From a virus (taxonomy: Duplodnaviria > Caudoviricetes), in IMG/VR virus record IMGVR_UViG_2974638963_000001, positions 54,538-118,537 of that record: 64,000 nt of DNA. One strand, written 5' to 3'. A program made the translations under genes and the position numbers. Under the pieces are notes generated by a model that saw only the letters and a list, made by a program, of their open reading frames with translations, was not told the origin of the DNA and searched no databases. Shown here piece by piece: positions 2,439 through 63,230 of the stretch; position 1 is the first letter of the stretch; each line of letters starts with the position of its first letter.

Positions 2439-5219
2439 GTGTTCACGATTTTAGAGGGACATGAGGGGTGGACAAGAGATCAAGCAACCGGTAACTGGGT
2501 TCCGTCTAACGAGGACTTCGTGTTTGCTAAAGAATTCTCTGAACAGTTTCCAATGGGTAAACCTCACTCACTTCCAACCAAGTTTAATGTTGTGAATGAA
2601 TATGACCCAAAGACACTCCCTGAAATGATGGATTTATTAAAGTTAATTACAGCTAACCCTCAATGGATGGTTATTCGTGCAAAACCGAAGGCAGCTCGAC
2701 GTGCAATTTATAGACGTAAAGTGAATTTCGAAACTTCTAATAAATCTAATATAATCGCTATCGACGTGGATGATTTTCCACTTCCTGACGATATATCTCC
2801 GTTTGATATTGCCGCCCAAGGACGTTACGTTCTAGGCATCCTTAATTCAATTAGCGAGGAGATGTTCCCATTAGATGCAGGTTTTATTGCACATGCATCG
2901 TCTTCTGCTGGTATTAAGTCTGGTATTCGTCTGCATATGTTCTTTCAGACTAATATTCCAGTAACTCAAGGACAATTGAAATTCACGTTCTCATCTATTA
3001 ATGAATCTTCACGAGAAAAATATAATGGAGTTAACGTAATTGACTTGGCTTATTACTCAGCTGTTCAGGCACATTATTTTGCCGACCCAATTTTCAAAGC
3101 CCCATTTAAAGATCCTTTCAAACAGGAGAAAGTCGCACGTCTGAGATTTGTTTCCGGTGGAACAATAAATATGCCAGACAATGTGCCAGACTTTGAGTCT
3201 ACTAAGGGGGAGTTTAAAGAGGAATTTTACTCTTTGTTAGATCAAATTAAAGGAAAACGTTCAACATCAGATAAGGTTGAGCGAATCATTGGAGAACTGG
3301 AAGATGCAGAAGATGGTGTTTATCTTCGTATAATTCCCAAGTTATATCACAATGCACTAGAAGAGGGTATAGATCTAGCATGGCTAGAAAAGGAAATTAC
3401 TCCAGCATTGTCTCTATATGTAGCACATAAAGACAACAGAAGAACTATTCAGGAATACTTTACCAACGGTCGTAAGCAGGCTTTGAAAGCTTTTGTAAAC
3501 AACTCTAAACGAGAGATACCGTTAAACTTAAAAGGCGTTCCAATTAAGCAGTTAGAAACTAACTCTGCTGAACAGGATAGATTCTTAAAGTTAGATAAAT
3601 TACCACCCGAAGGATCAATGACATTTGTTAAGTCTAGCCTGGGAACTGGTAAAACAACAGCTATTATTAAATGGCTAGATTCTGGTATGATTGATGGGGG
3701 ATTCCTAGCAATCACAAACACTCGTGCCTTAGTTTCATCAAACGCAAAGAAATTCACGTCTGGTCAATATAACAAATCTATTGATATGTTAGACTTTAAG
3801 AGAGGTGGATTAACTAGAATGTCCTCAACGATTCACTCTATTCATAAATTCAAGGGTTTAGTTGATAAGGTTGACTTTGTATTTATAGATGAGGCAGATG
3901 CGGTAATGAATGATTTATTATTTGCACCTGTTGTTAAGAATCGCAGACAGTGTATCGAAACGTTACGTGACCTTTTATTAAATGCGAAACATGTAATTTT
4001 ATCTGATGGTGATATCAGTGCAGAAACCGTAGAAGCCTATGGTAGTCTTATAGATTTTGATAAACCAATTAATTTCTTTAATCATCATCGTCGAATGTTA
4101 CAAGGTGCTCAAGCATATGAATTCTCAGATGCAGAGTCGGTCTGGGTCGCTTTTCAAACTTCATTAGAAATGGGTGAGAAGTCAATCATAGTAACAGACT
4201 GTGGGCCTGCAGAATTAGGTGAACGTGGTATTGCTTTACGAGAAGCCACTGGTTGTATAGTTAAAGAGATCCATTCCAACTCAACCGAAGACCCTGACAT
4301 TCGCAAAATACTAGACTATACTAATGAAGAACTTATCAATCAAAATGTTCACGGATTATTATGTAGTCCATCAGTAACTAATGGAGTTGACTGGAACTAT
4401 TTTGATAACGTATTCTTATTGACTTTAACGCCTAATCAAGCCCCAAACATGCGATTCCAGGCATTACGACGAGATCGTGGAGCACAGACTTTCTATTTCT
4501 ATACAGATAAGTCAACAAGTGGTTTCGATGCAGGTTCTACTCAGTATAATGCTGAGGAAGGGTGGCTAGATGCTAGTCAACAATCTTATGCAAGACGTAG
4601 GGAAACTGAAAGTCGAAACTATGCCTCAACTTTAAGATATTATTTATTAGACCAAGGCGCTACTATTGATATCTTTACAGAAAGTTGGGGTAAAATGGAA
4701 TCGGCGGCGGATGTCTATAAAGAAGAAAGGGTTAACGCTATCTTATCATCTCTACCAGATTATACTCCTTTACGTCACAATGATGCTTATGATGCTAAAC
4801 TATTACTGATGTCTTATTATCATATTGATAAACTATCAGAAGTAACCAGAGAACTAGCGGAGTCATTTGTAGAACAGAAGCCCAACGAGAGAGCAGAGTT
4901 CTTTCATAAGGTAGTAGATTTACTGTGGCCGGCAATAAAGAAATGTACTAGCGTTTCGGTAACTCCACTAGCAGAGGCATTAAAGAAACATAAACGAGAG
5001 TTCTTCTTATTAACTGGTCAATCGGCTCAGGCTAAATATACTCGTAAATATCTAGGAATGATGGGAATTGGTAAAGATCTTGACCTTGAGAACATCAAAG
5101 ACTGGTATAGAACCTATTGTAAAATAGAGGGTATACAGTTGCATCCCGATTTTATGACAGATAAAGAGCGTTCTCTATATGAAGAGGCTAGTATGGATTT
5201 GAGGTTCGATGATGAGTAA
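2439..5219 (+). CDS. obp: Replication origin-binding protein (N-terminal AEP/PrimPol-like domain plus UL9-like SF2 helicase)
   Basis: GTG start with SD AGGAG; IDVDD and SSSAG...RLH motifs; Walker A GTGKTT, DEAD, QALRRDR; T5 synteny. Confidence 0.85.
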   Translation: MFTILEGHEGWTRDQATGNWVPSNEDFVFAKEFSEQFPMGKPHSLPTKFNVVNEYDPKTLPEMMDLLKLITANPQWMVIRAKPKAARRAIYRRKVNFETSNKSNIIAIDVDDFPLPDDISPFDIAAQGRYVLGILNSISEEMFPLDAGFIAHASSSAGIKSGIRLHMFFQTNIPVTQGQLKFTFSSINESSREKYNGVNVIDLAYYSAVQAHYFADPIFKAPFKDPFKQEKVARLRFVSGGTINMPDNVPDFESTKGEFKEEFYSLLDQIKGKRSTSDKVERIIGELEDAEDGVYLRIIPKLYHNALEEGIDLAWLEKEITPALSLYVAHKDNRRTIQEYFTNGRKQALKAFVNNSKREIPLNLKGVPIKQLETNSAEQDRFLKLDKLPPEGSMTFVKSSLGTGKTTAIIKWLDSGMIDGGFLAITNTRALVSSNAKKFTSGQYNKSIDMLDFKRGGLTRMSSTIHSIHKFKGLVDKVDFVFIDEADAVMNDLLFAPVVKNRRQCIETLRDLLLNAKHVILSDGDISAETVEAYGSLIDFDKPINFFNHHRRMLQGAQAYEFSDAESVWVAFQTSLEMGEKSIIVTDCGPAELGERGIALREATGCIVKEIHSNSTEDPDIRKILDYTNEELINQNVHGLLCSPSVTNGVDWNYFDNVFLLTLTPNQAPNMRFQALRRDRGAQTFYFYTDKSTSGFDAGSTQYNAEEGWLDASQQSYARRRETESRNYASTLRYYLLDQGATIDIFTESWGKMESAADVYKEERVNAILSSLPDYTPLRHNDAYDAKLLLMSYYHIDKLSEVTRELAESFVEQKPNERAEFFHKVVDLLWPAIKKCTSVSVTPLAEALKKHKREFFLLTGQSAQAKYTRKYLGMMGIGKDLDLENIKDWYRTYCKIEGIQLHPDFMTDKERSLYEEASMDLRFDDE

Positions 5220-55340: not shown

Positions 55341-57104
55341 TTATGCGCGGTATTTCCCGTCTGTGATACGCACTAATTGACGCTGACCGTTGTTATAGGT
55401 AATCAAGTGCGTTTGAGTCCAGCTAGAAGCCCCGATATTATAGCCCATATCTAATGAGCCAGCAACGCCAGCAGTGTAACATAAGCCGTTAACGCTTGCA
55501 CTATGAGTGTGACCAGTGTTTAAGCGTCCTAACTTCGCAAACTGTTTAGGATTCCCCCGTGAGCCATTAGCCCCAACATGACCATGACAGCCCATTTCTA
55601 CGCCAGCGACCTTGAAAGATTCATCAACAACTAGGAAACGAATCTGATTAGCATTTTCTAACTTAGCTATCTTTTTCAAGCCCACTTCTAGGGCATTCCA
55701 GCCGCTTGCGGATTTATGTTCCGCAATATGGCGATATTTATCAAGGTTCATCTCATGATAAAGAATAGCATTAGCAGGATCTAGCCCTATATTAACATCC
55801 CATGCTTTGAGCCAGTTGGCTAGAGCTAAATCATGATTGGACTCAACCACAATGATTTCACTGAATGGGCGCATGATATCGCGGAAAATGTTAGCCGTAT
55901 CAATGAGATCTTGTTTAACGCTTTCTTGCCCTAAGTAGTAACGCTCCGCAATAAAATCATAATCACGTCTATTGTGATGATTTCGGCTTGTAAAGTCGTG
56001 GCTATCATGACAGATAGTAAACTTAGGTTTTAACAAGTCAATCATCGACGGGTAGCCATGCAAGCCAGCACCCCATGAACAAGCCGCTACAACATGATCA
56101 ATCTTTTCTGCATGAAGATCACCGAACTGTAAAGCAGAAACATGATTTTCAGCTCTAAACACTTGATCACTTGTTACATAAGTATCAAGATCATAAAACG
56201 AGCCATCATCATTCATGCACTGTAAATGGCGTATAAATGGCGTGTCATTATCGTCGAACTCAACTAAGATTGCACCATAGCAATGCAATGATTCTGCTTT
56301 CTGACCAGCTAGGCGCTGAATATAATTTCGATGTGTGACCGTCCCCGTTGTAGTTAACTCTCTAACTAGCTCACCTTTAAGAGCAGGGATATTAAACATT
56401 TGATACTTGGCAGCAGGTACAACCGCATGATGATTGCCTATAATGCTTTCAATGCCTGTTAATGGGTTAATAGCAGTAGGGGAAATGCATAAAGCACCTA
56501 AGAAAGATACTTTCTTACTTTCGCCTAGAAACACGTTTTCCTCAACAAAATATGGGGTTAATTCTGGCGCATACCACAATGAATCATCTTGCGCGGTCGG
56601 ATTCGCAAAGCCTTTCTTGTTATATGCAAACTTAGAAATGATTAATTCAGCTCCTAAATACTCTGCATACGTTTCTAAGGATTTCAAGAAAGGCACGTTA
56701 ACAGAAGTATTATTTTGCGCGGTTGTCAAAATAAATGCTTTACCTGATTTAACTTGCCATTTTGATTGAGCAGGTTTTAGAGAGCCACCATATACAGGCA
56801 AATCAGGGTTATCAGCTTTACGGGCTTTAGCCTTTGTTATTGGCTTGTTCTCGTCTAGCCATACTCTAAGCGCAGCCGTGAATTCTGGTTTAATAGCTTG
56901 CTCACCGTCCTCATTGTCATACGCTAGATTTTCCGCTATAACATCGACTAAAGTAGACAGCGCAAACGCTTCGTTTGCCGTTTTATCTTTTACGGATTCT
57001 AGGCGTTTTCCGTAGTAATTAACACCTTTAGCGCATTCTAGCAGGTCAGCCGCCAGATTTTTATCTGCTAATAGGTCTGAAATAGTTTTTAAAATGGGAT
57101 TCAT
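55341..57104 (-). CDS. A1: A1 protein (host DNA degradation / second-step transfer; metallophosphoesterase-like)
   Basis: TTAQNNT, GDLH, SNHD, HGHVGANGSRG, GHTHS, SSW motifs. Confidence 0.9.
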   Translation of the reverse strand: MNPILKTISDLLADKNLAADLLECAKGVNYYGKRLESVKDKTANEAFALSTLVDVIAENLAYDNEDGEQAIKPEFTAALRVWLDENKPITKAKARKADNPDLPVYGGSLKPAQSKWQVKSGKAFILTTAQNNTSVNVPFLKSLETYAEYLGAELIISKFAYNKKGFANPTAQDDSLWYAPELTPYFVEENVFLGESKKVSFLGALCISPTAINPLTGIESIIGNHHAVVPAAKYQMFNIPALKGELVRELTTTGTVTHRNYIQRLAGQKAESLHCYGAILVEFDDNDTPFIRHLQCMNDDGSFYDLDTYVTSDQVFRAENHVSALQFGDLHAEKIDHVVAACSWGAGLHGYPSMIDLLKPKFTICHDSHDFTSRNHHNRRDYDFIAERYYLGQESVKQDLIDTANIFRDIMRPFSEIIVVESNHDLALANWLKAWDVNIGLDPANAILYHEMNLDKYRHIAEHKSASGWNALEVGLKKIAKLENANQIRFLVVDESFKVAGVEMGCHGHVGANGSRGNPKQFAKLGRLNTGHTHSASVNGLCYTAGVAGSLDMGYNIGASSWTQTHLITYNNGQRQLVRITDGKYRA

Positions 57105-57179
57105 TTATATAGCTCCTAATTAAAGGGTTTTAGTGGTAACGAACTAGCCACCTCCGAAAAGGTGACTAGGGCGGATCAC

Positions 57180-57644
57180 TTATAGGCGGTCAATGCCATT
57201 TTCTTCCATAATGCCCTGTAATACATCATCAGGGCATACCTTTTTAACAATCATAATGATTGTATCAAGGTTGGCTTTTTCAAGACTAGCCCAATCATCT
57301 TTTTCTTGGTCGTTGTCGGACATATCACGCTGAAGGGCACGAATCAGAGTGATTTTTTGTAATTTCTTACCGCCGCCAACTGGCTGCTTTACTTCAAGGG
57401 CACGATAAATTTTGTTACCGTTTTCATCTTTAGAAGATGATAACTTAGTACGGACAGCCGTAGCCGTGTATGTTTCACCATCACCGCTAATTTGTTCACC
57501 GATGGATGCTAGATTATCGACAGCGTTTGCCGATGCAATTTCTTCGTCGGTCGGTTCAGCAGGGTTAACAAATGCCGCTAAATATAAGTTGATAGCTTTT
57601 GCGGTTACTTCTTCATTCCAGCGTTTTTTAGATGGAGTAGACAT
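57180..57644 (-). CDS. A2: A2-like DNA-binding protein
   Basis: WNEEVT...AVRTKLSS...VGGG...K...SLEKA pattern, position upstream of A1. Confidence 0.78.
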   Translation of the reverse strand: MSTPSKKRWNEEVTAKAINLYLAAFVNPAEPTDEEIASANAVDNLASIGEQISGDGETYTATAVRTKLSSSKDENGNKIYRALEVKQPVGGGKKLQKITLIRALQRDMSDNDQEKDDWASLEKANLDTIIMIVKKVCPDDVLQGIMEENGIDRL

Positions 57645-57842
57645 AATTTAATACCTCATTTTTCATGGTTTAAGTTTAAGTTATACACTTCTCATTAGTG
57701 TATTATGAATAGAGCCTGTCTGTCAAGCCCTATTAATTACACTATCAAGAGGAGTCTAAGCAATGGCAACTGCTTAATGAAGCCCTGAATTTCAAGGCTT
57801 GTTTAAGCATCCAATCTTAGCTATTTCACCGTGTTTTCCGTA

Positions 57843-57855
57843 TTGTTAAAGAGCG
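57843..57855 (-). promoter_or_regulatory. boxA antitermination element
   Basis: CGCTCTTTAACAA on - strand, ~20 nt after the inferred TSS. Confidence 0.8.
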
Positions 57856-57881
57856 TGGTTAGTTGCCTAACCTTTGAATCT

Positions 57882-57910
57882 ATCTTATATCAGCCGCCTG
57901 ATTTTGTCAA
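57882..57910 (-). promoter_or_regulatory. Pre-early promoter
   Basis: TTGACA-17-TAAGAT. Confidence 0.85.
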
Positions 57911-57914
57911 GCGT

Positions 57915-58214
57915 TTATTTCCAAATACTTCTATTAATGCTTTGTTGCGATTCTATCGTTTCTACAACCTGAATCACTATGCCTAGATTATGCCATGCTT
58001 CGCTTGCCTTGTCAAACAGTTTTTTATCACCGTCGAAATACTGATCTAGCGTAGCCTTGTAAGCGTTGCGAATTATCTTAGCTTCTTTCCTTAGCCTTGT
58101 CAAGTCGATTCTATGATCTATTCTCTCGGTCAATGCTTCGTTTGCCGTAATGCCCTGAGAAGCTACTAGAGTGCATAATACTTGATTAAAAGATTGTTTT
58201 GCCATATTTGCCAT
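57915..58214 (-). CDS. Pre-early hypothetical protein
   Basis: Own promoter, SD GAGG. Confidence 0.75.
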   Translation of the reverse strand: MANMAKQSFNQVLCTLVASQGITANEALTERIDHRIDLTRLRKEAKIIRNAYKATLDQYFDGDKKLFDKASEAWHNLGIVIQVVETIESQQSINRSIWK

Positions 58215-58252
58215 TCCTCAATAGTTAGGTTAGGCGGCTGATATAAGTTAGA

Positions 58253-58265
58253 TTGTTAAAGAGCG
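58253..58265 (-). promoter_or_regulatory. boxA antitermination element
   Basis: CGCTCTTTAACAA on - strand. Confidence 0.8.
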
Positions 58266-58281
58266 TGTTTCTATGGTTAGT

Positions 58282-58310
58282 ATCTTAAAGCCTAGTATTG
58301 TTTTTGTCAA
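58282..58310 (-). promoter_or_regulatory. Pre-early promoter
   Basis: TTGACA-17-TAAGAT. Confidence 0.85.
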
Positions 58311-58652
58311 CTATTTATTTGTGTACTGCATAACATTTTCTATATATACGATTCTAACCGCTATATATAAGCAACGATAGAAGCGCAAGGCTAATTGATC
58401 TTTTGCTATCCCGTAGTGAATAGGCATTTTTGACGCTTCGGGAAATTTTTCTTCTAGATCTGATAATAGGCGAGTTAATGAAGCCCATTTAACAGAACCA
58501 TTATCAAGCCCTTTTTCAAGATCTAACATGATGCAAGTTGCTACCTTATCGATATCATTTCTAACCACTATAGGAAATGATAATAATTCTAGTATTAACT
58601 GTAATGTATCATTGCTTAAAAAGGTTGCTTTAATCTTTCTTGCTTTTGCCAT
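58311..58652 (-). CDS. Pre-early hypothetical protein
   Basis: SD GGAG. Confidence 0.75.
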   Translation of the reverse strand: MAKARKIKATFLSNDTLQLILELLSFPIVVRNDIDKVATCIMLDLEKGLDNGSVKWASLTRLLSDLEEKFPEASKMPIHYGIAKDQLALRFYRCLYIAVRIVYIENVMQYTNK

Positions 58653-58700
58653 TTGTATTTACTCCGATAGTATATACTAGGCTTTAAGATACTAACCGTA

Positions 58701-58713
58701 TTTTTAAAGAGCG
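58701..58713 (-). promoter_or_regulatory. boxA antitermination element
   Basis: CGCTCTTTAAAAA on - strand. Confidence 0.75.
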
Positions 58714-58800
58714 TTACTACTAGGAACTTATCCAGTTATTCATATGCCACTGGCGGCTACTTCGTGGGCTTTCCTTGCCTTGTTCCTTACTATGTGACTA

Positions 58801-58828
58801 AGTATACATGAGCCAATTTAAAAAGCAA
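58801..58828 (-). promoter_or_regulatory. Pre-early promoter (leftward)
   Basis: TTGCTT-16-TATACT with A/T-rich UP element. Confidence 0.65.
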
Positions 58829-58942
58829 CTATTATTTTTAATTATTTTGCTGGCGGTAGTGTATAAGGAAACGGGCGCGTGATTATACACAAGTTAACTA
58901 GGAAGTAAAGAAAATTACTTATTAAAAAGATACAAAAAGAGC

Positions 58943-58970
58943 TTGCATTTAACAACCGTGGTGCTAATAT
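58943..58970 (+). promoter_or_regulatory. Pre-early promoter (rightward)
   Basis: TTGCAT-16-TAATAT with A-tract UP element. Confidence 0.6.
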
Positions 58971-59006
58971 ATATCTCATCGAAAGGCAAACAAAGGAGGT
59001 AGCAAA

Positions 59007-60086
59007 ATGACCGTCAAGGCACTTAAAAGCAATCGAGCGATAGCTCGAAGCGGTCACATTAACACAATTGAGCAATTAAGACAATCAGACGTTGGGGGTT
59101 TTCCATCAACTAGTATTGTTAGACGAGCTACGCCTAGGCAGCTTAATAATATAATGCATACGGCAGGGAGTACAGAACAATCTGTATTAACTCCTTTAAG
59201 TAGTCAAAGTGCGTATAAACATATTAAAAATTTGCTTGATTTACTTGTTTCCGGTGTGGTAGAATACATTACAATCTACTCGCCAGATGGTACGTTAATA
59301 AGTGATCACTATTATTCTACACGTCGATCTATGGAGGAGGATTGCGATACCGCCTACTCTAAGGCTAAGGACGATTTACTAATCTTAGCTAAATCTAGTA
59401 ATGGCATCATGTTAACATGGGGTAGCTATGACGCTAGAAAGTCGGCAGGTGTGGGCGTCAAGGTAGAGTGTGAGGTTTTCAATCAAAATGATAGCCTATT
59501 TGACGTTATCTATGATATATTTAACCATGCTAACTATAACGATTTAATTGACGTGGATTTATCCGATAAGCTACGCAATCAGGGCGTTATTATACAGGGT
59601 CATACAGTTAGCGAGAACAAGTATACACAAGTAATTATAGAGGAATTTTTAAAATCATCTATAAGCGAAGCTGGCGAAACAGCAGAGCAACCAATCGAAA
59701 CCAAAGAGGAAACTAGCAAAATGAAAACAACATTCAGCACTATCTTAGCAGAAAACAAAGCAGCAGCAATCAACGCTGGCGAAATGGAAACGGGGCGTTT
59801 AGTCGTTAATCGTATTGTGGCAGTCGTTAAAAAGCGTGCTCCGCTAATGGTTAAAGGGTACATTGATACACCAGTGGGGCGCATTGCCGTAGCAAATTTA
59901 TTTGCCGCTTTAGTGCGAGAATATCTACCTGATAACGCACTGGCAGGACGTGCGGCAGACGGGGCGGTGAAGTCGGCAGCTTATGAAGTATTGCGTGATA
60001 TTGATATACCAGCAATTCTAGAAGAAGTATTGGCAGGATTCAAAGACGCTGAGCCAGCAGCAGCAAGCGAAAAGATCGCACTGTAA
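59007..60086 (+). CDS. Pre-early hypothetical protein (conserved-looking C-terminus, PLMVKGYIDTPVGR)
   Basis: SD AAGGAGGT; possible internal start at 59721 (GAGG...ATG). Confidence 0.8.
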   Translation: MTVKALKSNRAIARSGHINTIEQLRQSDVGGFPSTSIVRRATPRQLNNIMHTAGSTEQSVLTPLSSQSAYKHIKNLLDLLVSGVVEYITIYSPDGTLISDHYYSTRRSMEEDCDTAYSKAKDDLLILAKSSNGIMLTWGSYDARKSAGVGVKVECEVFNQNDSLFDVIYDIFNHANYNDLIDVDLSDKLRNQGVIIQGHTVSENKYTQVIIEEFLKSSISEAGETAEQPIETKEETSKMKTTFSTILAENKAAAINAGEMETGRLVVNRIVAVVKKRAPLMVKGYIDTPVGRIAVANLFAALVREYLPDNALAGRAADGAVKSAAYEVLRDIDIPAILEEVLAGFKDAEPAAASEKIAL

Positions 60087-61011: not shown

Positions 61012-61416
61012 ATAGCACAAAAAGCTAAAACAATTTAATCTAGGTAGGGTAATATAGCCCTACTAACACAAAACGAGGGTTTAAACATGGAAAAATTAAA
61101 ACTGGCATTCCCTACTGCATTTTCTGAGCTAGTTGAATGCTTTGGGGAAAAGCAAGCTGAAATTGAGCTTGAGAAGTTAGTCGAGCGTCAAAAGATTAAC
61201 CCTAAGTTAGATTTAGAAGATAAACCGCTTCTAGCTGCTTTTGTGTGGGAAGAAACGGAACAGGGTCATGAATACTGGCGAGAGCTTCTATACTCAAAAG
61301 ATTTATTGCCACCACTGTTTTATTTTCTGTCCGACTCTAGTCATACAGACGACGAATAGCACAAAAAGCTAAAACAAATTAATCTAGGTAGGGTAATATA
61401 GCCCTACCAACACAAA
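61012..61416 (+). repeat. 61-bp direct repeat (61012-61072 and 61356-61416), each upstream of a paralogous gene
   Basis: 59/61 identical, contains a GTAGGG...CCCTAC hairpin. Confidence 0.92.
61087..61359 (+). CDS. Hypothetical protein (AFxW...QGxEYW motif)
   Basis: SD GAGG. Confidence 0.75.
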   Translation: MEKLKLAFPTAFSELVECFGEKQAEIELEKLVERQKINPKLDLEDKPLLAAFVWEETEQGHEYWRELLYSKDLLPPLFYFLSDSSHTDDE

Positions 61417-63131: not shown

Positions 63132-63156
63132 GCAAGTGAGAAGCATTCGCATTCAT
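63132..63156. promoter_or_regulatory. Fur box-like site
   Basis: GCAAGTGAGAAGCATTCGC (12/19) plus an overlapping hexamer-shifted copy. Confidence 0.5.
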
Positions 63157-63158
63157 TT

Positions 63159-63230
63159 AGCCGTCTAAACGTCTGGACGTCTAAACGTCTAGATGGCTGG
63201 ACGTCTAGATGGCTGGACGTCTAGACGTCC
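63159..63230. repeat. Nine tandem 8-bp Met boxes (MetJ operator array)
   Basis: AGCCGTCT AAACGTCT GGACGTCT AAACGTCT AGATGGCT GGACGTCT AGATGGCT GGACGTCT AGACGTCC vs AGACGTCT. Confidence 0.8.

What the first reader, a model, noticed from the sequence alone, without database searches (positions are those of the whole stretch)
57877..58697. Pre-early ORFs each enclosed by a long inverted repeat pairing the 5' leader with the next promoter region (rRNA-processing-stem-like layout)
Seen: ORF 58311-58652 is flanked by a perfect 24-bp inverted repeat (58275-58298 and 58674-58697). ORF 57915-58214 is flanked by a different one, 22/23 matched (57877-57899 and 58232-58254). In each case the upstream arm follows a boxA and the downstream arm is the spacer and -10 of the next promoter. 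The upstream arm has no -35, so it is not simply an antisense promoter. Established: in rrn operons, boxA and Nus factors help leader and trailer pair into RNase III stems around 16S and 23S. Inference: the phage may package individual pre-early mRNAs like rRNAs (closed ends, RNase III excision, stabilisation), or the leader RNA may invade the downstream open promoter as a feedback switch. Two different arm sequences in the same layout argue for selection.
Basis: partly seen in the sequence, partly recalled or inferred. Interest (0 to 1): 0.82.

Follow-up and report, generated by a model that had tools for sequence, protein, structure and literature searches.

The report
rRNA-style RNA brackets around phage genes
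In the first-injected DNA of this T5-like phage, two small genes are each bracketed the way bacteria bracket their ribosomal RNAs, with a host boxA signal, then one strand of a long RNA helix, the gene, and the other strand, which is also the core of the next promoter; the bracket is conserved across T5 relatives but has never been tested experimentally.

Summary
The two inverted repeats (24/27 nt and 22/23 nt) are the only long-range ones in the 118.5-kb genome and are far longer than any in shuffled sequence. Each 5' arm starts 0-3 nt after a perfect boxA (GYTCTTTAANA). There are only three boxA copies in the genome, all here and all on the transcribed strand. Each 3' arm is the spacer, -10 and discriminator of a TTGACA-17-TAAGAT promoter and ends at about +1.

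The layout is conserved in T5 itself, where the repeat is already annotated as IRA/IRA' around hdi and includes promoter P_D/E20. It is also found in six to seven further lineages (clearly in KEY, My1, Slocum, TrudiRoth, Kpn24-P2 and an IMG/VR relative of PL1; weakly in PL1). The arm sequences and the enclosed genes differ, but the arms stay complementary.

The best reading (confidence 0.6) is an rrn-like leader-trailer RNA helix that forms only on transcripts carrying the whole ORF and is probably cut by RNase III.

The repeats are known in T5 with "function unknown". I found no paper giving the boxA/helix reading. This scan reached the same reading earlier on other T5-like genomes. What is new here is two tandem modules with unrelated arms and unrelated cargo genes.

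The parts
58882..58909 (-). P0, candidate promoter for the first module (TTTACT-16-TATAAT), followed by the conserved CGCGCCCGTTTCC
   Evidence: Consensus scan gives 10/12. It is identical in PSTCR5. The downstream 13-mer is shared with T5 and TrudiRoth. It is predicted only.
58700..58714 (-). boxA-1 (ACGCTCTTTAAAAAT)
   Evidence: Perfect match to GYTCTTTAANA (consensus from PMC5725501).
58674..58700 (-). 5' arm of helix 1 (perfect core 58674-58697)
   Evidence: Duplex -39.7 kcal/mol against a shuffle minimum of -25.6. Mean pair probability 0.99.
58311..58652 (-). ORF113, cargo gene 1 (SD GGAG at 58665-58662). No family found. It is not hdi.
   Evidence: 13 synonymous and 6 non-synonymous codon differences against PSTCR5.
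58272..58310 (-). Promoter P1 (-35 at 58310-58305, -10 TAAGAT at 58287-58282), whose spacer, -10 and discriminator form the 3' arm of helix 1 (58272-58298). It is the orthologue of T5 P_D/E20.
   Evidence: It shares the core TAGGCTTTAAGAT with T5 IRA/P_D/E20.
58254..58266 (-). boxA-2 (ACGCTCTTTAACA), about 10 nt after the predicted +1 of P1
58232..58254 (-). 5' arm of helix 2
   Evidence: Duplex -38.2 against a shuffle minimum of -29.4. Pair probabilities 0.8-1.0 except at the single A.A mismatch.
57915..58214 (-). ORF99, cargo gene 2. The likely start is the second ATG at 58205, 9 nt after GAGGA. It holds two internal promoter-like sites (58103-58075 and 58015-57987).
   Evidence: 18 synonymous and 3 non-synonymous codon differences against PSTCR5.
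57877..57910 (-). Promoter P2 (-35 at 57910-57905, -10 TAAGAT at 57887-57882), containing the 3' arm of helix 2 (57877-57899)
57844..57872 (-). boxB-like GCAA hairpin (57872-57857) followed directly by boxA-3 (57856-57844). It has no partner arm and leads into A2/A1.
   Evidence: Hairpin -6.9 kcal/mol. Duplex search gives -24.2, no better than shuffles.
55341..57644 (-). A2 (57180-57644) and A1 (55341-57104), the essential pre-early genes served by this promoter and boxA chain
   Evidence: PHROG 1725 and 1745. PSTCR5 annotation.

Best explanation
Each module is an rrn-style transcription and processing unit built around an mRNA.

Inferred sequence of events:
- Host RNA polymerase starts at P0 or P1.
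- It transcribes a boxA, which is expected to load NusB/NusE and the other rrn antitermination factors.
- It then transcribes the 5' arm, the small ORF, and reads straight through the next promoter.
- The untranscribed core of that promoter (about -30 to +1) is the 3' arm.

On these read-through RNAs the two arms form a 23-27 bp leader-trailer helix that loops out the whole cistron. RNAs that start at the downstream promoter lack the 3' arm. RNAs that start at promoters inside the ORF lack the 5' arm. So only RNAs carrying the complete ORF close the helix.

A perfect duplex of this length is a default RNase III substrate. Cleavage would have three effects. It would detach the used boxA leader. 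It would release the ORF mRNA with base-paired ends. It would leave the downstream RNA starting just before its own fresh boxA, as happens at the 16S-23S spacer.

What is shown: the anatomy, its statistical significance, conservation with covarying arms across genera, and thermodynamic dominance of the helix.

What is inferred: Nus loading, read-through, RNase III cleavage, and the benefit to the phage (mRNA stability, dosage, or resetting of the antitermination complex).
For: - The repeats are unique in the genome and far beyond chance.
- Three perfect boxA consensus sites occur only here, all on the sense strand (consensus).
- The 5' arm starts 0-4 nt after boxA in every lineage, and the 3' arm always covers the spacer, -10 and discriminator of the next sigma70 promoter.
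- No terminator-like site lies on the minus strand between 58720 and 57640.
- The MFE and centroid structures of an 866-nt RNA contain both helices, z = -3.5. Cognate pair probabilities are 0.8-1.0.
- The same layout occurs in T5, TrudiRoth, KEY, My1 (two modules), Slocum, Kpn24-P2 and an IMG/VR relative of PL1. Duplex energies are -38 to -73 kcal/mol, against shuffle minima of -25 to -37. The last boxA, before A2, never has a partner.
- With arms anchored on the -10, cognate arms pair at 22-27 of 27 positions in 8 of 10 modules (mean 22.8 over all ten). Non-cognate arms average 13.8. Many columns show 3-4 different Watson-Crick pair types.
- Transition mismatches are mostly G.U in the sense RNA: about 8, against 2 C.A.
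- The enclosed genes are unrelated: DUF7416/hdi in T5 against two orphan ORFs here. What is conserved is therefore the frame, not the cargo.
- The rrn precedent has boxB-boxA-boxC, a 25-40 bp leader-trailer helix whose 5' strand lies 18-19 nt after boxA, and a second boxA set before 23S (PMC10250234).
Against: - There are no RNA data. No transcript ends, no rnc dependence and no Nus dependence have been shown.
- P0 is only predicted.
- In transcripts truncated before the 3' arm, the 5' arm is not kept unusually free: unpaired probability 0.43 against 0.46 overall.
- In Proteus phage PL1 the duplex is no better than shuffles (-29.8).
- The two Vibrio T5-like phages with a boxA lack the helix.
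- In TrudiRoth, and partly in T5, the repeat includes boxA itself. An anti-boxA rather than a boxA then follows the promoter, which does not fit 'each segment gets a fresh boxA'.
- Some mismatches are A.A, G.A or C.A. The G.U excess is not statistically significant.
- Quasipalindrome template switching could keep arms complementary without any RNA function.
Confidence: 0.6

Rival explanations
1. The RNA helix forms but is not an RNase III processing site. Instead it acts as a switch on the intact RNA. It could bring stop codon and start codon together (closed-loop re-initiation). It could displace or lock the Nus complex on the adjacent boxA. It could protect both ends from RNase E and exonucleases, as the hok mRNA 5'-3' fold-back does.
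For: It rests on the same covariation and folding evidence as the main reading. The 5' arm abuts boxA (0-4 nt) and ends 9-20 nt before the SD, and the 3' arm starts about 12-17 nt after the stop codon. In TrudiRoth the helix includes boxA itself, which suggests control of boxA accessibility.
Against: From established RNase III biochemistry, perfect 23-40 bp duplexes are cut by enterobacterial RNase III unless antideterminant pairs are present. I did not test for antideterminants. Recurrent central mismatches (A.A in the window's helix 2 and in Slocum) might modulate cleavage rather than prevent it.
Confidence: 0.15
2. The repeat is a DNA-level by-product with no RNA function. The 5' arm is an inverted partial copy of the promoter core, kept similar by template switching or gene conversion between quasi-palindromic arms, or left over from an ancestral divergent promoter pair.
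For: In Vibrio phage D17 the same promoter core really does occur in both orientations as divergent promoters, so promoter duplication can create inverted repeats in this family. Every 3' arm is a promoter.
Against: The arms have turned over completely between genera and between the window's own two modules, yet stay complementary across 240-450 nt. The mirrored copy never keeps a -35 at working distance. The 5' arm is always glued to a sense-strand boxA, which a neutral process would not maintain. Mismatches lean towards G.U on the sense strand.
Confidence: 0.12
3. The upstream arm is an antisense promoter or a sigma70 decoy. RNA polymerase binds the mirrored -10 on the plus strand, giving antisense RNA or pausing.
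For: The plus strand of each upstream arm carries TAAGAT or TAAGTT. A weak plus-strand promoter-like site (TTGCCA-16-TAGTAT, 58646-58673) lies next to arm 1.
Against: There is no -35 and no extended -10 at the right spacing, here or in T5. In T5 the -35-like GTTTAC sits only 13 nt from the -10. The scan found 39 promoter-like sites against 26.8 expected, so one weak neighbour means little. Sigma-dependent pausing needs the -10 on the non-template strand in the sense orientation, which is not the case here.
Confidence: 0.05
4. The leader RNA invades the downstream promoter DNA, forming an R-loop on the non-template -10 strand, as a feedback switch.
For: The 5' arm RNA is complementary to the non-template strand of the next promoter (read).
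Against: The same RNA molecule will itself contain the fully complementary 3' arm a few nucleotides later, giving an intramolecular RNA-RNA helix with a predicted probability of about 1. No known precedent or requirement for such invasion exists. It would not explain the G.U-compatible changes any better.
Confidence: 0.03

Closest known systems
E. coli / Enterobacterales rrn operon leader and spacer: boxB-boxA-boxC plus the 16S and 23S leader-trailer helices cut by RNase III (PMC10250234)
   Same: It has a sense-strand boxA matching GYTCTTTAANA, sometimes with a hairpin directly before it. The 5' strand of a long helix starts right after boxA. The helix is 23-40 bp, against 25-40 bp in rrn. 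It encloses the whole downstream RNA. A new boxA follows each 3' strand, as before 23S. Two units lie in tandem. The helix is supported by covariation, not by sequence conservation.
   Different: It encloses 96-113-codon mRNAs, not structural RNAs. The loops are 330-375 nt, not 1.5-2.9 kb. The 3' strand doubles as the core of a strong sigma70 promoter, so locally initiated RNAs lack it. There is no boxC sequence. The element is carried by a virulent phage. RNase III cleavage and Nus binding are untested.
Phage T5 'inverted repeat A / A'' in Repeat Region 1 of the left terminal repeat (GenBank AY587007 annotation; Davison, bioRxiv 10.1101/866236)
   Same: It occupies the same place (terminal repeat, upstream of A2/A1). 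The same boxA precedes the 5' arm. The 3' arm lies in the orthologous promoter, with the core TAGGCTTTAAGAT shared with P_D/E20.
   Different: T5 has one module around hdi (T5.008, DUF7416), and its repeat runs on into a partial anti-boxA. The window has two tandem modules, with a second, unrelated arm pair and two unrelated orphan ORFs. The literature I could read calls the region 'untranslated' with unknown function and mentions no promoter, boxA or RNase III in this connection.
Phage T7/T3 early-region RNase III sites and lambda N-leader / sib retroregulation (from my own knowledge)
   Same: Host-polymerase early transcripts of a virulent or temperate phage are cut into units by host RNase III. 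In lambda the RNase III site lies next to a nut (boxA) site, and sib forms only on antiterminated read-through RNA.
   Different: Those sites are local hairpins, often with internal loops. They are not 330-375-nt-range duplexes that enclose a cistron, and none coincides with a promoter core.
hok mRNA fold-back (fbi/tac) 5'-3' pairing (from my own knowledge)
   Same: Long-range pairing of the two ends of a small toxic-protein mRNA closes the molecule.
   Different: The hok pairing silences translation until 3' trimming. It has no boxA, no promoter overlap and no proposed RNase III cut in that helix.

Membership tests
rrn-type boxA (NusB/NusE site) | Sense-strand match to the gamma-proteobacterial consensus GYTCTTTAANA | tested here: met
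   Three perfect matches, all on the minus strand at 58712, 58264 and 57854. None occurs elsewhere in 108 kb, against 0.95 expected (consensus from PMC5725501).
rrn-type boxA (NusB/NusE site) | Lies in the transcribed leader shortly after a promoter | tested here: met
   boxA-2 and boxA-3 begin about 10 and 20 nt after the predicted +1 of P1 and P2. boxA-1 lies about 160 nt after P0. The promoters are predicted only.
rrn-type boxA (NusB/NusE site) | Binds NusB/NusE and confers Rho-resistant elongation | not testable with these tools
   Needs ChIP/RIP or boxA point mutants in nusB or suhB hosts.
rrn-type boxA (NusB/NusE site) | boxB hairpin directly upstream (rrn order boxB-boxA) | tested here: inconclusive
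   boxA-3 has a clear GCAA hairpin (-6.9 kcal/mol). boxA-1 has a weak one (-4.3). boxA-2 has none. T5, KEY, Slocum and Kpn24-P2 have strong ones at boxA-1.
rrn leader-trailer helix / RNase III processing stalk | Long (more than 17 bp) complementarity between the flanks of the enclosed RNA | tested here: met
   24/27 and 22/23 bp, with pair probabilities 0.8-1.0.
rrn leader-trailer helix / RNase III processing stalk | 5' strand placed just downstream of boxA | tested here: met
   The gap is 0-4 nt in nine modules from seven lineages. In rrn, boxC lies 18-19 nt after boxA.
rrn leader-trailer helix / RNase III processing stalk | Helix supported by covariation among relatives | tested here: met
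   Cognate arms pair at 22-27 of 27 positions in 8 of 10 modules, against a non-cognate mean of 13.8. Several Watson-Crick pair types appear per column. Duplex energies are far below shuffles in 10 modules.
rrn leader-trailer helix / RNase III processing stalk | Cleaved by RNase III in vivo | not testable with these tools
rrn leader-trailer helix / RNase III processing stalk | Encloses a structural rRNA | tested here: not met
   It encloses protein-coding ORFs under purifying selection with no Rfam match. It therefore works like this family but is not a member.
T5 IRA/IRA' cassette | Position in the terminal repeat upstream of A2/A1, with the 3' arm in the P_D/E20-type promoter | tested here: met
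   Module 1 shares TAGGCTTTAAGAT with T5.
T5 IRA/IRA' cassette | Encloses hdi (T5.008, DUF7416) | tested here: not met
   ORF113 and ORF99 show no similarity to Hdi and no Pfam or PHROG hit.
Mobile or invertible DNA element (IS/MITE terminal repeats, Hin-type inversion) | Recombinase or transposase, multiple copies of the same repeat, target duplications | tested here: not met
   Each repeat is unique in the genome apart from the terminal-repeat copy. No recombinase lies in the neighbourhood. The two arm pairs are unrelated.
Divergent duplicated promoters (as in Vibrio phage D17) | The mirrored copy has its own -35 at 16-18 nt | tested here: not met
   The plus-strand hexamers are CTCCGA and ATAGTT. 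In T5 the spacing is 13 nt.

The most novel reading that the evidence does not exclude
Enterobacterial T5-like phages copy the whole regulatory grammar of host rrn operons for their first-injected genes. The copied parts are a GC-discriminator promoter, boxB-boxA, leader-trailer helices and a fresh boxA per segment. The rrn antitermination complex, acting as an RNA chaperone, would then loop out each small and often toxic cistron. RNase III would release it as an end-paired mRNA. Placing the 3' strand in the untranscribed core of the next promoter lets the phage treat read-through RNAs and locally initiated RNAs differently. The frame would be a general expression cassette into which unrelated host-takeover genes are swapped.
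Probability: 0.3. Interest if true: 0.8.

Novelty: new variant of a known kind. Interest (0 to 1): 0.62.

Why it matters
If the reading holds, it would be the first case I know of in which the rrn antitermination and leader-trailer design is used for messenger RNAs. It would occur in T5, a classic model phage whose pre-early control is still poorly understood.

It would assign a function to repeats (IRA/IRA') that have been catalogued since 2005 as conserved but unexplained. It would also explain why the very strong pre-early promoters overlap small toxic genes.

It offers a compact natural test bed, with 330-450-nt loops instead of 1.5-kb rRNA, for the proposed chaperone role of the rrn antitermination complex in long-range helix formation.

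The tandem modules here, with different arms and different cargo genes, show that the frame is modular. That could be useful as a design for insulated expression units.

Tried and rejected
No read-level test was possible and read laying was not used.
- Close relatives for fine covariation: only PSTCR5 (94% identical) exists in the phage collection. The next relatives have about 50% A1 identity.
- The search for related loci with A2, alone or as an alignment, returned only 1 and 5 loci.
- Scans of viral contigs for the boxA 14-mer and 15-mer returned mostly unrelated contigs with single hits and were not informative.
- Rfam: no family matched in 57500-59100.
- Paralogy of the two cargo ORFs, and homology to T5 Hdi: none found. 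Pfam and PHROGs gave nothing for either ORF.
- The idea that the 5' arm is kept single-stranded until its partner appears was not supported: 0.43 against 0.46.
- Gentz and Bujard 1985 (PMC214212), needed for the mapped +1 of P_D/E20, is not held.
- Readings considered and rejected: mobile element or invertible segment, antisense promoter, operator pair for one protein (the two arm pairs are unrelated), intrinsic terminator (no U-tract directly after the 3' arm), and a cruciform in double-stranded DNA (the loops are far too large).
Full report
**What the DNA is.** The window is the right 64 kb of a 118,537-bp virus record with an exact 10,461-bp direct terminal repeat. The finding lies inside that repeat, so it is present at both genome ends. 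The nearest published relative is Providencia phage PSTCR5 (Demerecviridae, Priunavirus), 94% identical over this stretch. Just downstream on the same (minus) strand lie the T5-type pre-early genes A2 (57180-57644) and A1 (55341-57104).

**Checking the observation.** All genes here run on the minus strand. Read 5' to 3' on that strand, the order is as follows.
- A candidate promoter P0 (TTTACT-16-TATAAT, 58909-58882).
- boxA-1 (58714-58700).
- The 5' arm of helix 1 (58700-58674).
- SD GGAG and ORF113 (58652-58311).
- Four nucleotides after the stop codon, promoter P1 (TTGACA 58310-58305, 17-nt spacer, TAAGAT 58287-58282). Its spacer, -10 and discriminator are the 3' arm of helix 1 (58298-58272).
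- boxA-2 (58266-58254).
- The 5' arm of helix 2 (58254-58232).
- SD GAGGA and ORF99 (58214-57915).
- Promoter P2 (57910-57882), containing the 3' arm of helix 2 (57899-57877).
- A GCAA-loop hairpin (57872-57857).
- boxA-3 (57856-57844).
- About 200 nt of leader.
- A2.

The repeats are 27 nt with one mismatch (24 perfect) and 22 of 23 nt. They are the only inverted repeats of 18 nt or more, with a gap of 50-1000 nt, in the whole genome. In 40 block-shuffles of the window the longest was 14-18 nt. The boxA consensus GYTCTTTAANA (PMC5725501) occurs exactly three times in the 108-kb unique genome. All three are within 860 nt and on the sense strand, against 0.95 expected on both strands. On the plus strand, the mirrored -10 of each upstream arm has no -35 (CTCCGA and ATAGTT at 17 nt) and no TG extension.

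**The enclosed ORFs are real genes but unrelated cargo.** Against PSTCR5, ORF113 shows 13 synonymous and 6 non-synonymous codon differences. ORF99, counted from its second ATG, shows 18 and 3. Neither ORF has a Pfam or PHROG family. They are not similar to each other.

**T5 has the same layout.** The T5 GenBank record AY587007 already annotates 'inverted repeat A' and 'A'' in the left terminal repeat. In the T5 sequence, a GC hairpin is followed directly by ACGCTCTTTAAAAAT, and then by IRA'. Next comes a 67-codon ORF. Its stop codon overlaps the TTGACA of a TTGACA-17-TAAGAT promoter, and that promoter's spacer, -10 and discriminator are IRA. A 2026 preprint states that the experimentally characterised strong promoters P_H22 and P_D/E20 overlap gene hdi fully and partly. 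hdi is T5.008, an FtsZ-targeting division inhibitor (PMC10714956) of family DUF7416. So the T5 3' arm is P_D/E20 and the T5 cargo is hdi. The window's P1 shares the core TAGGCTTTAAGAT with P_D/E20, but the flanking arm bases differ and the 5' arms differ in step with them. The window's ORFs are not Hdi.

**Comparative panel.** I fetched the pre-early regions of eleven T5-like phages and further IMG/VR loci.
- A blind search for inverted repeats and boxA motifs found the same order in Erwinia KEY (25 nt), Pectobacterium My1 (25 nt, plus a second module), Serratia Slocum (28 nt), Klebsiella Kpn24-P2, Proteus PL1 (17 nt), TrudiRoth (40 nt) and T5 (25 nt). That order is boxA, a 5' arm within 0-4 nt, one or two small ORFs, a 3' arm in the next promoter, and the next boxA.
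- I then computed the best duplex between the 50 nt that start at each boxA and the following 120-1000 nt. Energies for the first boxA(s) of each phage were -38 to -73 kcal/mol. The minima of 30 shuffles were -25 to -37.
- The last boxA before A2 never had a partner better than shuffles.
- PL1 itself was not above shuffles. An IMG/VR relative of PL1 (L271) was (-38.4).
- The two Vibrio phages with a boxA have only one and have no such helix.

**Covariation.** I anchored ten modules on the -10 hexamer. Cognate arms pair at 22-27 of 27 positions in eight modules. The other two were poorly anchored because of a bulge. Non-cognate combinations average 13.8. Most columns outside the -10 show three or four different Watson-Crick pair types. 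The window's own two modules have unrelated arms in the same layout. Small-scale variation points the same way. In the T5 clade, two C-to-T changes in the 5' arm give U.G pairs. PSTCR5 has an A-to-G change giving G.U. TrudiRoth, My1 and Kpn24-P2 also carry G.U pairs. C.A mismatches are fewer: roughly 8 G.U against 2 C.A, which is suggestive but not significant. Complementarity without sequence conservation excludes a sequence-specific protein site and points to base pairing.

**Which nucleic acids pair.** No terminator-like structure lies on the minus strand between 58720 and 57640, and the stop codons abut the next -35. So transcripts that carry a complete ORF should run through the next promoter and contain both arms. 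Folding an 866-nt RNA puts both long-range helices in the MFE and the centroid structure, with z = -3.5. Partition-function pair probabilities are 0.88-1.0 for helix 1. For helix 2 they are 0.79-1.0, except at the single A.A mismatch. The perfect part of 3' arm 1 ends at 58275, about the predicted +1 of P1, so P1-initiated RNAs lack it. RNAs from the promoter-like sites inside ORF99, like those from P_H22 inside hdi, lack the 5' arm. The helix is therefore specific to RNAs that carry the whole cistron. An intramolecular RNA helix is the simplest reading. Four alternatives fit less well:
- An antisense promoter fails for lack of a -35, both here and in T5.
- A cruciform is implausible with 330-375-bp loops.
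- An R-loop on the promoter is out-competed by the RNA's own 3' arm.
- Neutral concerted evolution cannot be excluded. It does not explain the constant junction with a sense-strand boxA, or the turnover of the arms across genera.

**How it most likely works.** The layout matches the rrn operon point by point, as described in PMC10250234.
- rrn has boxB, boxA and boxC after the promoter, and a second set before 23S.
- rrn has 25-40-bp leader-trailer helices supported by covariation.
- The 5' strand (boxC) lies 18-19 nt after boxA.
- In the current model, boxA bound to NusB holds the 5' strand at the RNA exit channel until the trailer emerges.

The phage modules have a 5' strand starting 0-4 nt after boxA, a 23-40-bp helix, a fresh boxA after each 3' strand, and two units in tandem. 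I therefore infer three steps. First, the rrn antitermination complex loads on the phage RNA. Second, the helix closes when RNA polymerase passes the next promoter. Third, RNase III, which cuts long perfect duplexes by default (established biochemistry), severs the used leader, releases an end-paired ORF mRNA, and leaves the downstream RNA with its own boxA. These steps are inference. None was testable here.

**Evidence against, and open points.**
- No RNA data could be obtained.
- The 5' arm is not predicted to stay unusually free before its partner is made.
- In TrudiRoth, and partly in T5, the repeat extends through boxA. The promoter is then followed by an anti-boxA, which fits a boxA-masking switch better than a simple 'fresh boxA' model.
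- A recurrent A.A mismatch opposite position 5 of TAAGAT, seen in the window's helix 2 and in Slocum, is unexplained.

**What is known and what is new.** The repeats are catalogued for T5 (Wang et al. 2005 annotation). [quoted passage not shown] His text never mentions promoters, RNase III or antitermination. Full-text searches found no paper linking phage T5 with boxA, NusB, antitermination or RNase III. Notes from this scan show that follow-up agents reached the same rrn-like reading on at least seven other T5-like genomes and on an SP6/K1-5-like phage. The left-end copy in this genome was noted too. Those are unchecked AI notes and not independent evidence, but the idea is not new to this scan.

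This window adds three things:
- A Priunavirus example with two tandem modules.
- A second, unrelated arm pair.
- Cargo genes unrelated to hdi.

Together these show that the frame, not the gene, is the conserved unit.

**Verdict.** I class it as a new variant of a known kind (the rrn boxA plus leader-trailer helix), carried by phage mRNAs, and already catalogued as an unexplained repeat in T5.

Noticed in passing
window 58075-58103 and 57987-58015 (minus strand): Two consensus-like sigma70 promoters (TTGACA-17-TAAGAT, and TTGACA-17-CATAAT with TG) lie inside the coding frame of ORF99. This resembles P_H22 inside T5 hdi. Their RNAs would carry the 3' arm without the 5' arm.
   Followed up: partly
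window 58370-58388 and 57945-57963: A 19-nt stretch near the 3' end of ORF113 is complementary (17/19) to one near the 3' end of ORF99. It is kept in PSTCR5 with a shifted register. It could be a third, inter-module pairing, or it could be chance (shuffles reach 16-18 nt).
   Followed up: no
window 58865-58909 (minus strand); L127:5008-5021; L136:2476: The P0 candidate promoter has a 16-nt spacer and a GC-rich discriminator, followed by CGCGCCCGTTTCC. That motif is identical in T5 and nearly so in TrudiRoth, and lies 152-165 nt before boxA-1. From memory it resembles rrn P1 promoters. This was not tested.
   Followed up: partly
window 57835-57844; L129:3237, L131:2875, L132:2808, L134:3362, L135:3712: The last, partnerless boxA of each phage is followed by a conserved TTTGGAAAA(C). 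The window has ACGGAAAAC. This holds even in the Vibrio T5-like phages. It may be an extended Nus/boxC-like element.
   Followed up: no
L136:2637-2676 and 3081-3120 (Escherichia phage TrudiRoth): The inverted repeat is 40 nt and includes boxA itself, so the promoter is followed by an anti-boxA (duplex -73 kcal/mol). T5 keeps a partial version (AGAGCG). This suggests that boxA is masked in read-through RNA.
   Followed up: partly
L135:1691-1716, 2592-2619, 2907-2927, 3367-3385 (Vibrio phage D17): The same promoter core (GCTTAGAATSGCTTACAGG) is used in both orientations. These are true divergent or repeated promoters that produce inverted repeats at the DNA level. They are a useful negative comparator.
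   Followed up: no
window 61012-61072 and 61356-61416 (plus strand): Two 61-nt direct repeats (97% identical), each with a GTAGGG...CCCTAC hairpin, precede successive small ORFs of the rightward pre-early operon. No boxA lies on that strand.
   Followed up: no
window 63154-63229: A tandem array of 8-nt units (CGTCTAAA / CGTCTGGA / TGGCTGGA) lies in the gene-free stretch near the inner end of the terminal repeat, where T5 has its injection-stop repeat region.
   Followed up: no
window 57780-57800 (minus strand): A hairpin AAGCCTTG-AAATT-CAGGGCTT lies about 45 nt after boxA-3 in the A2 leader. It is boxB-like in shape and identical in PSTCR5.
   Followed up: no
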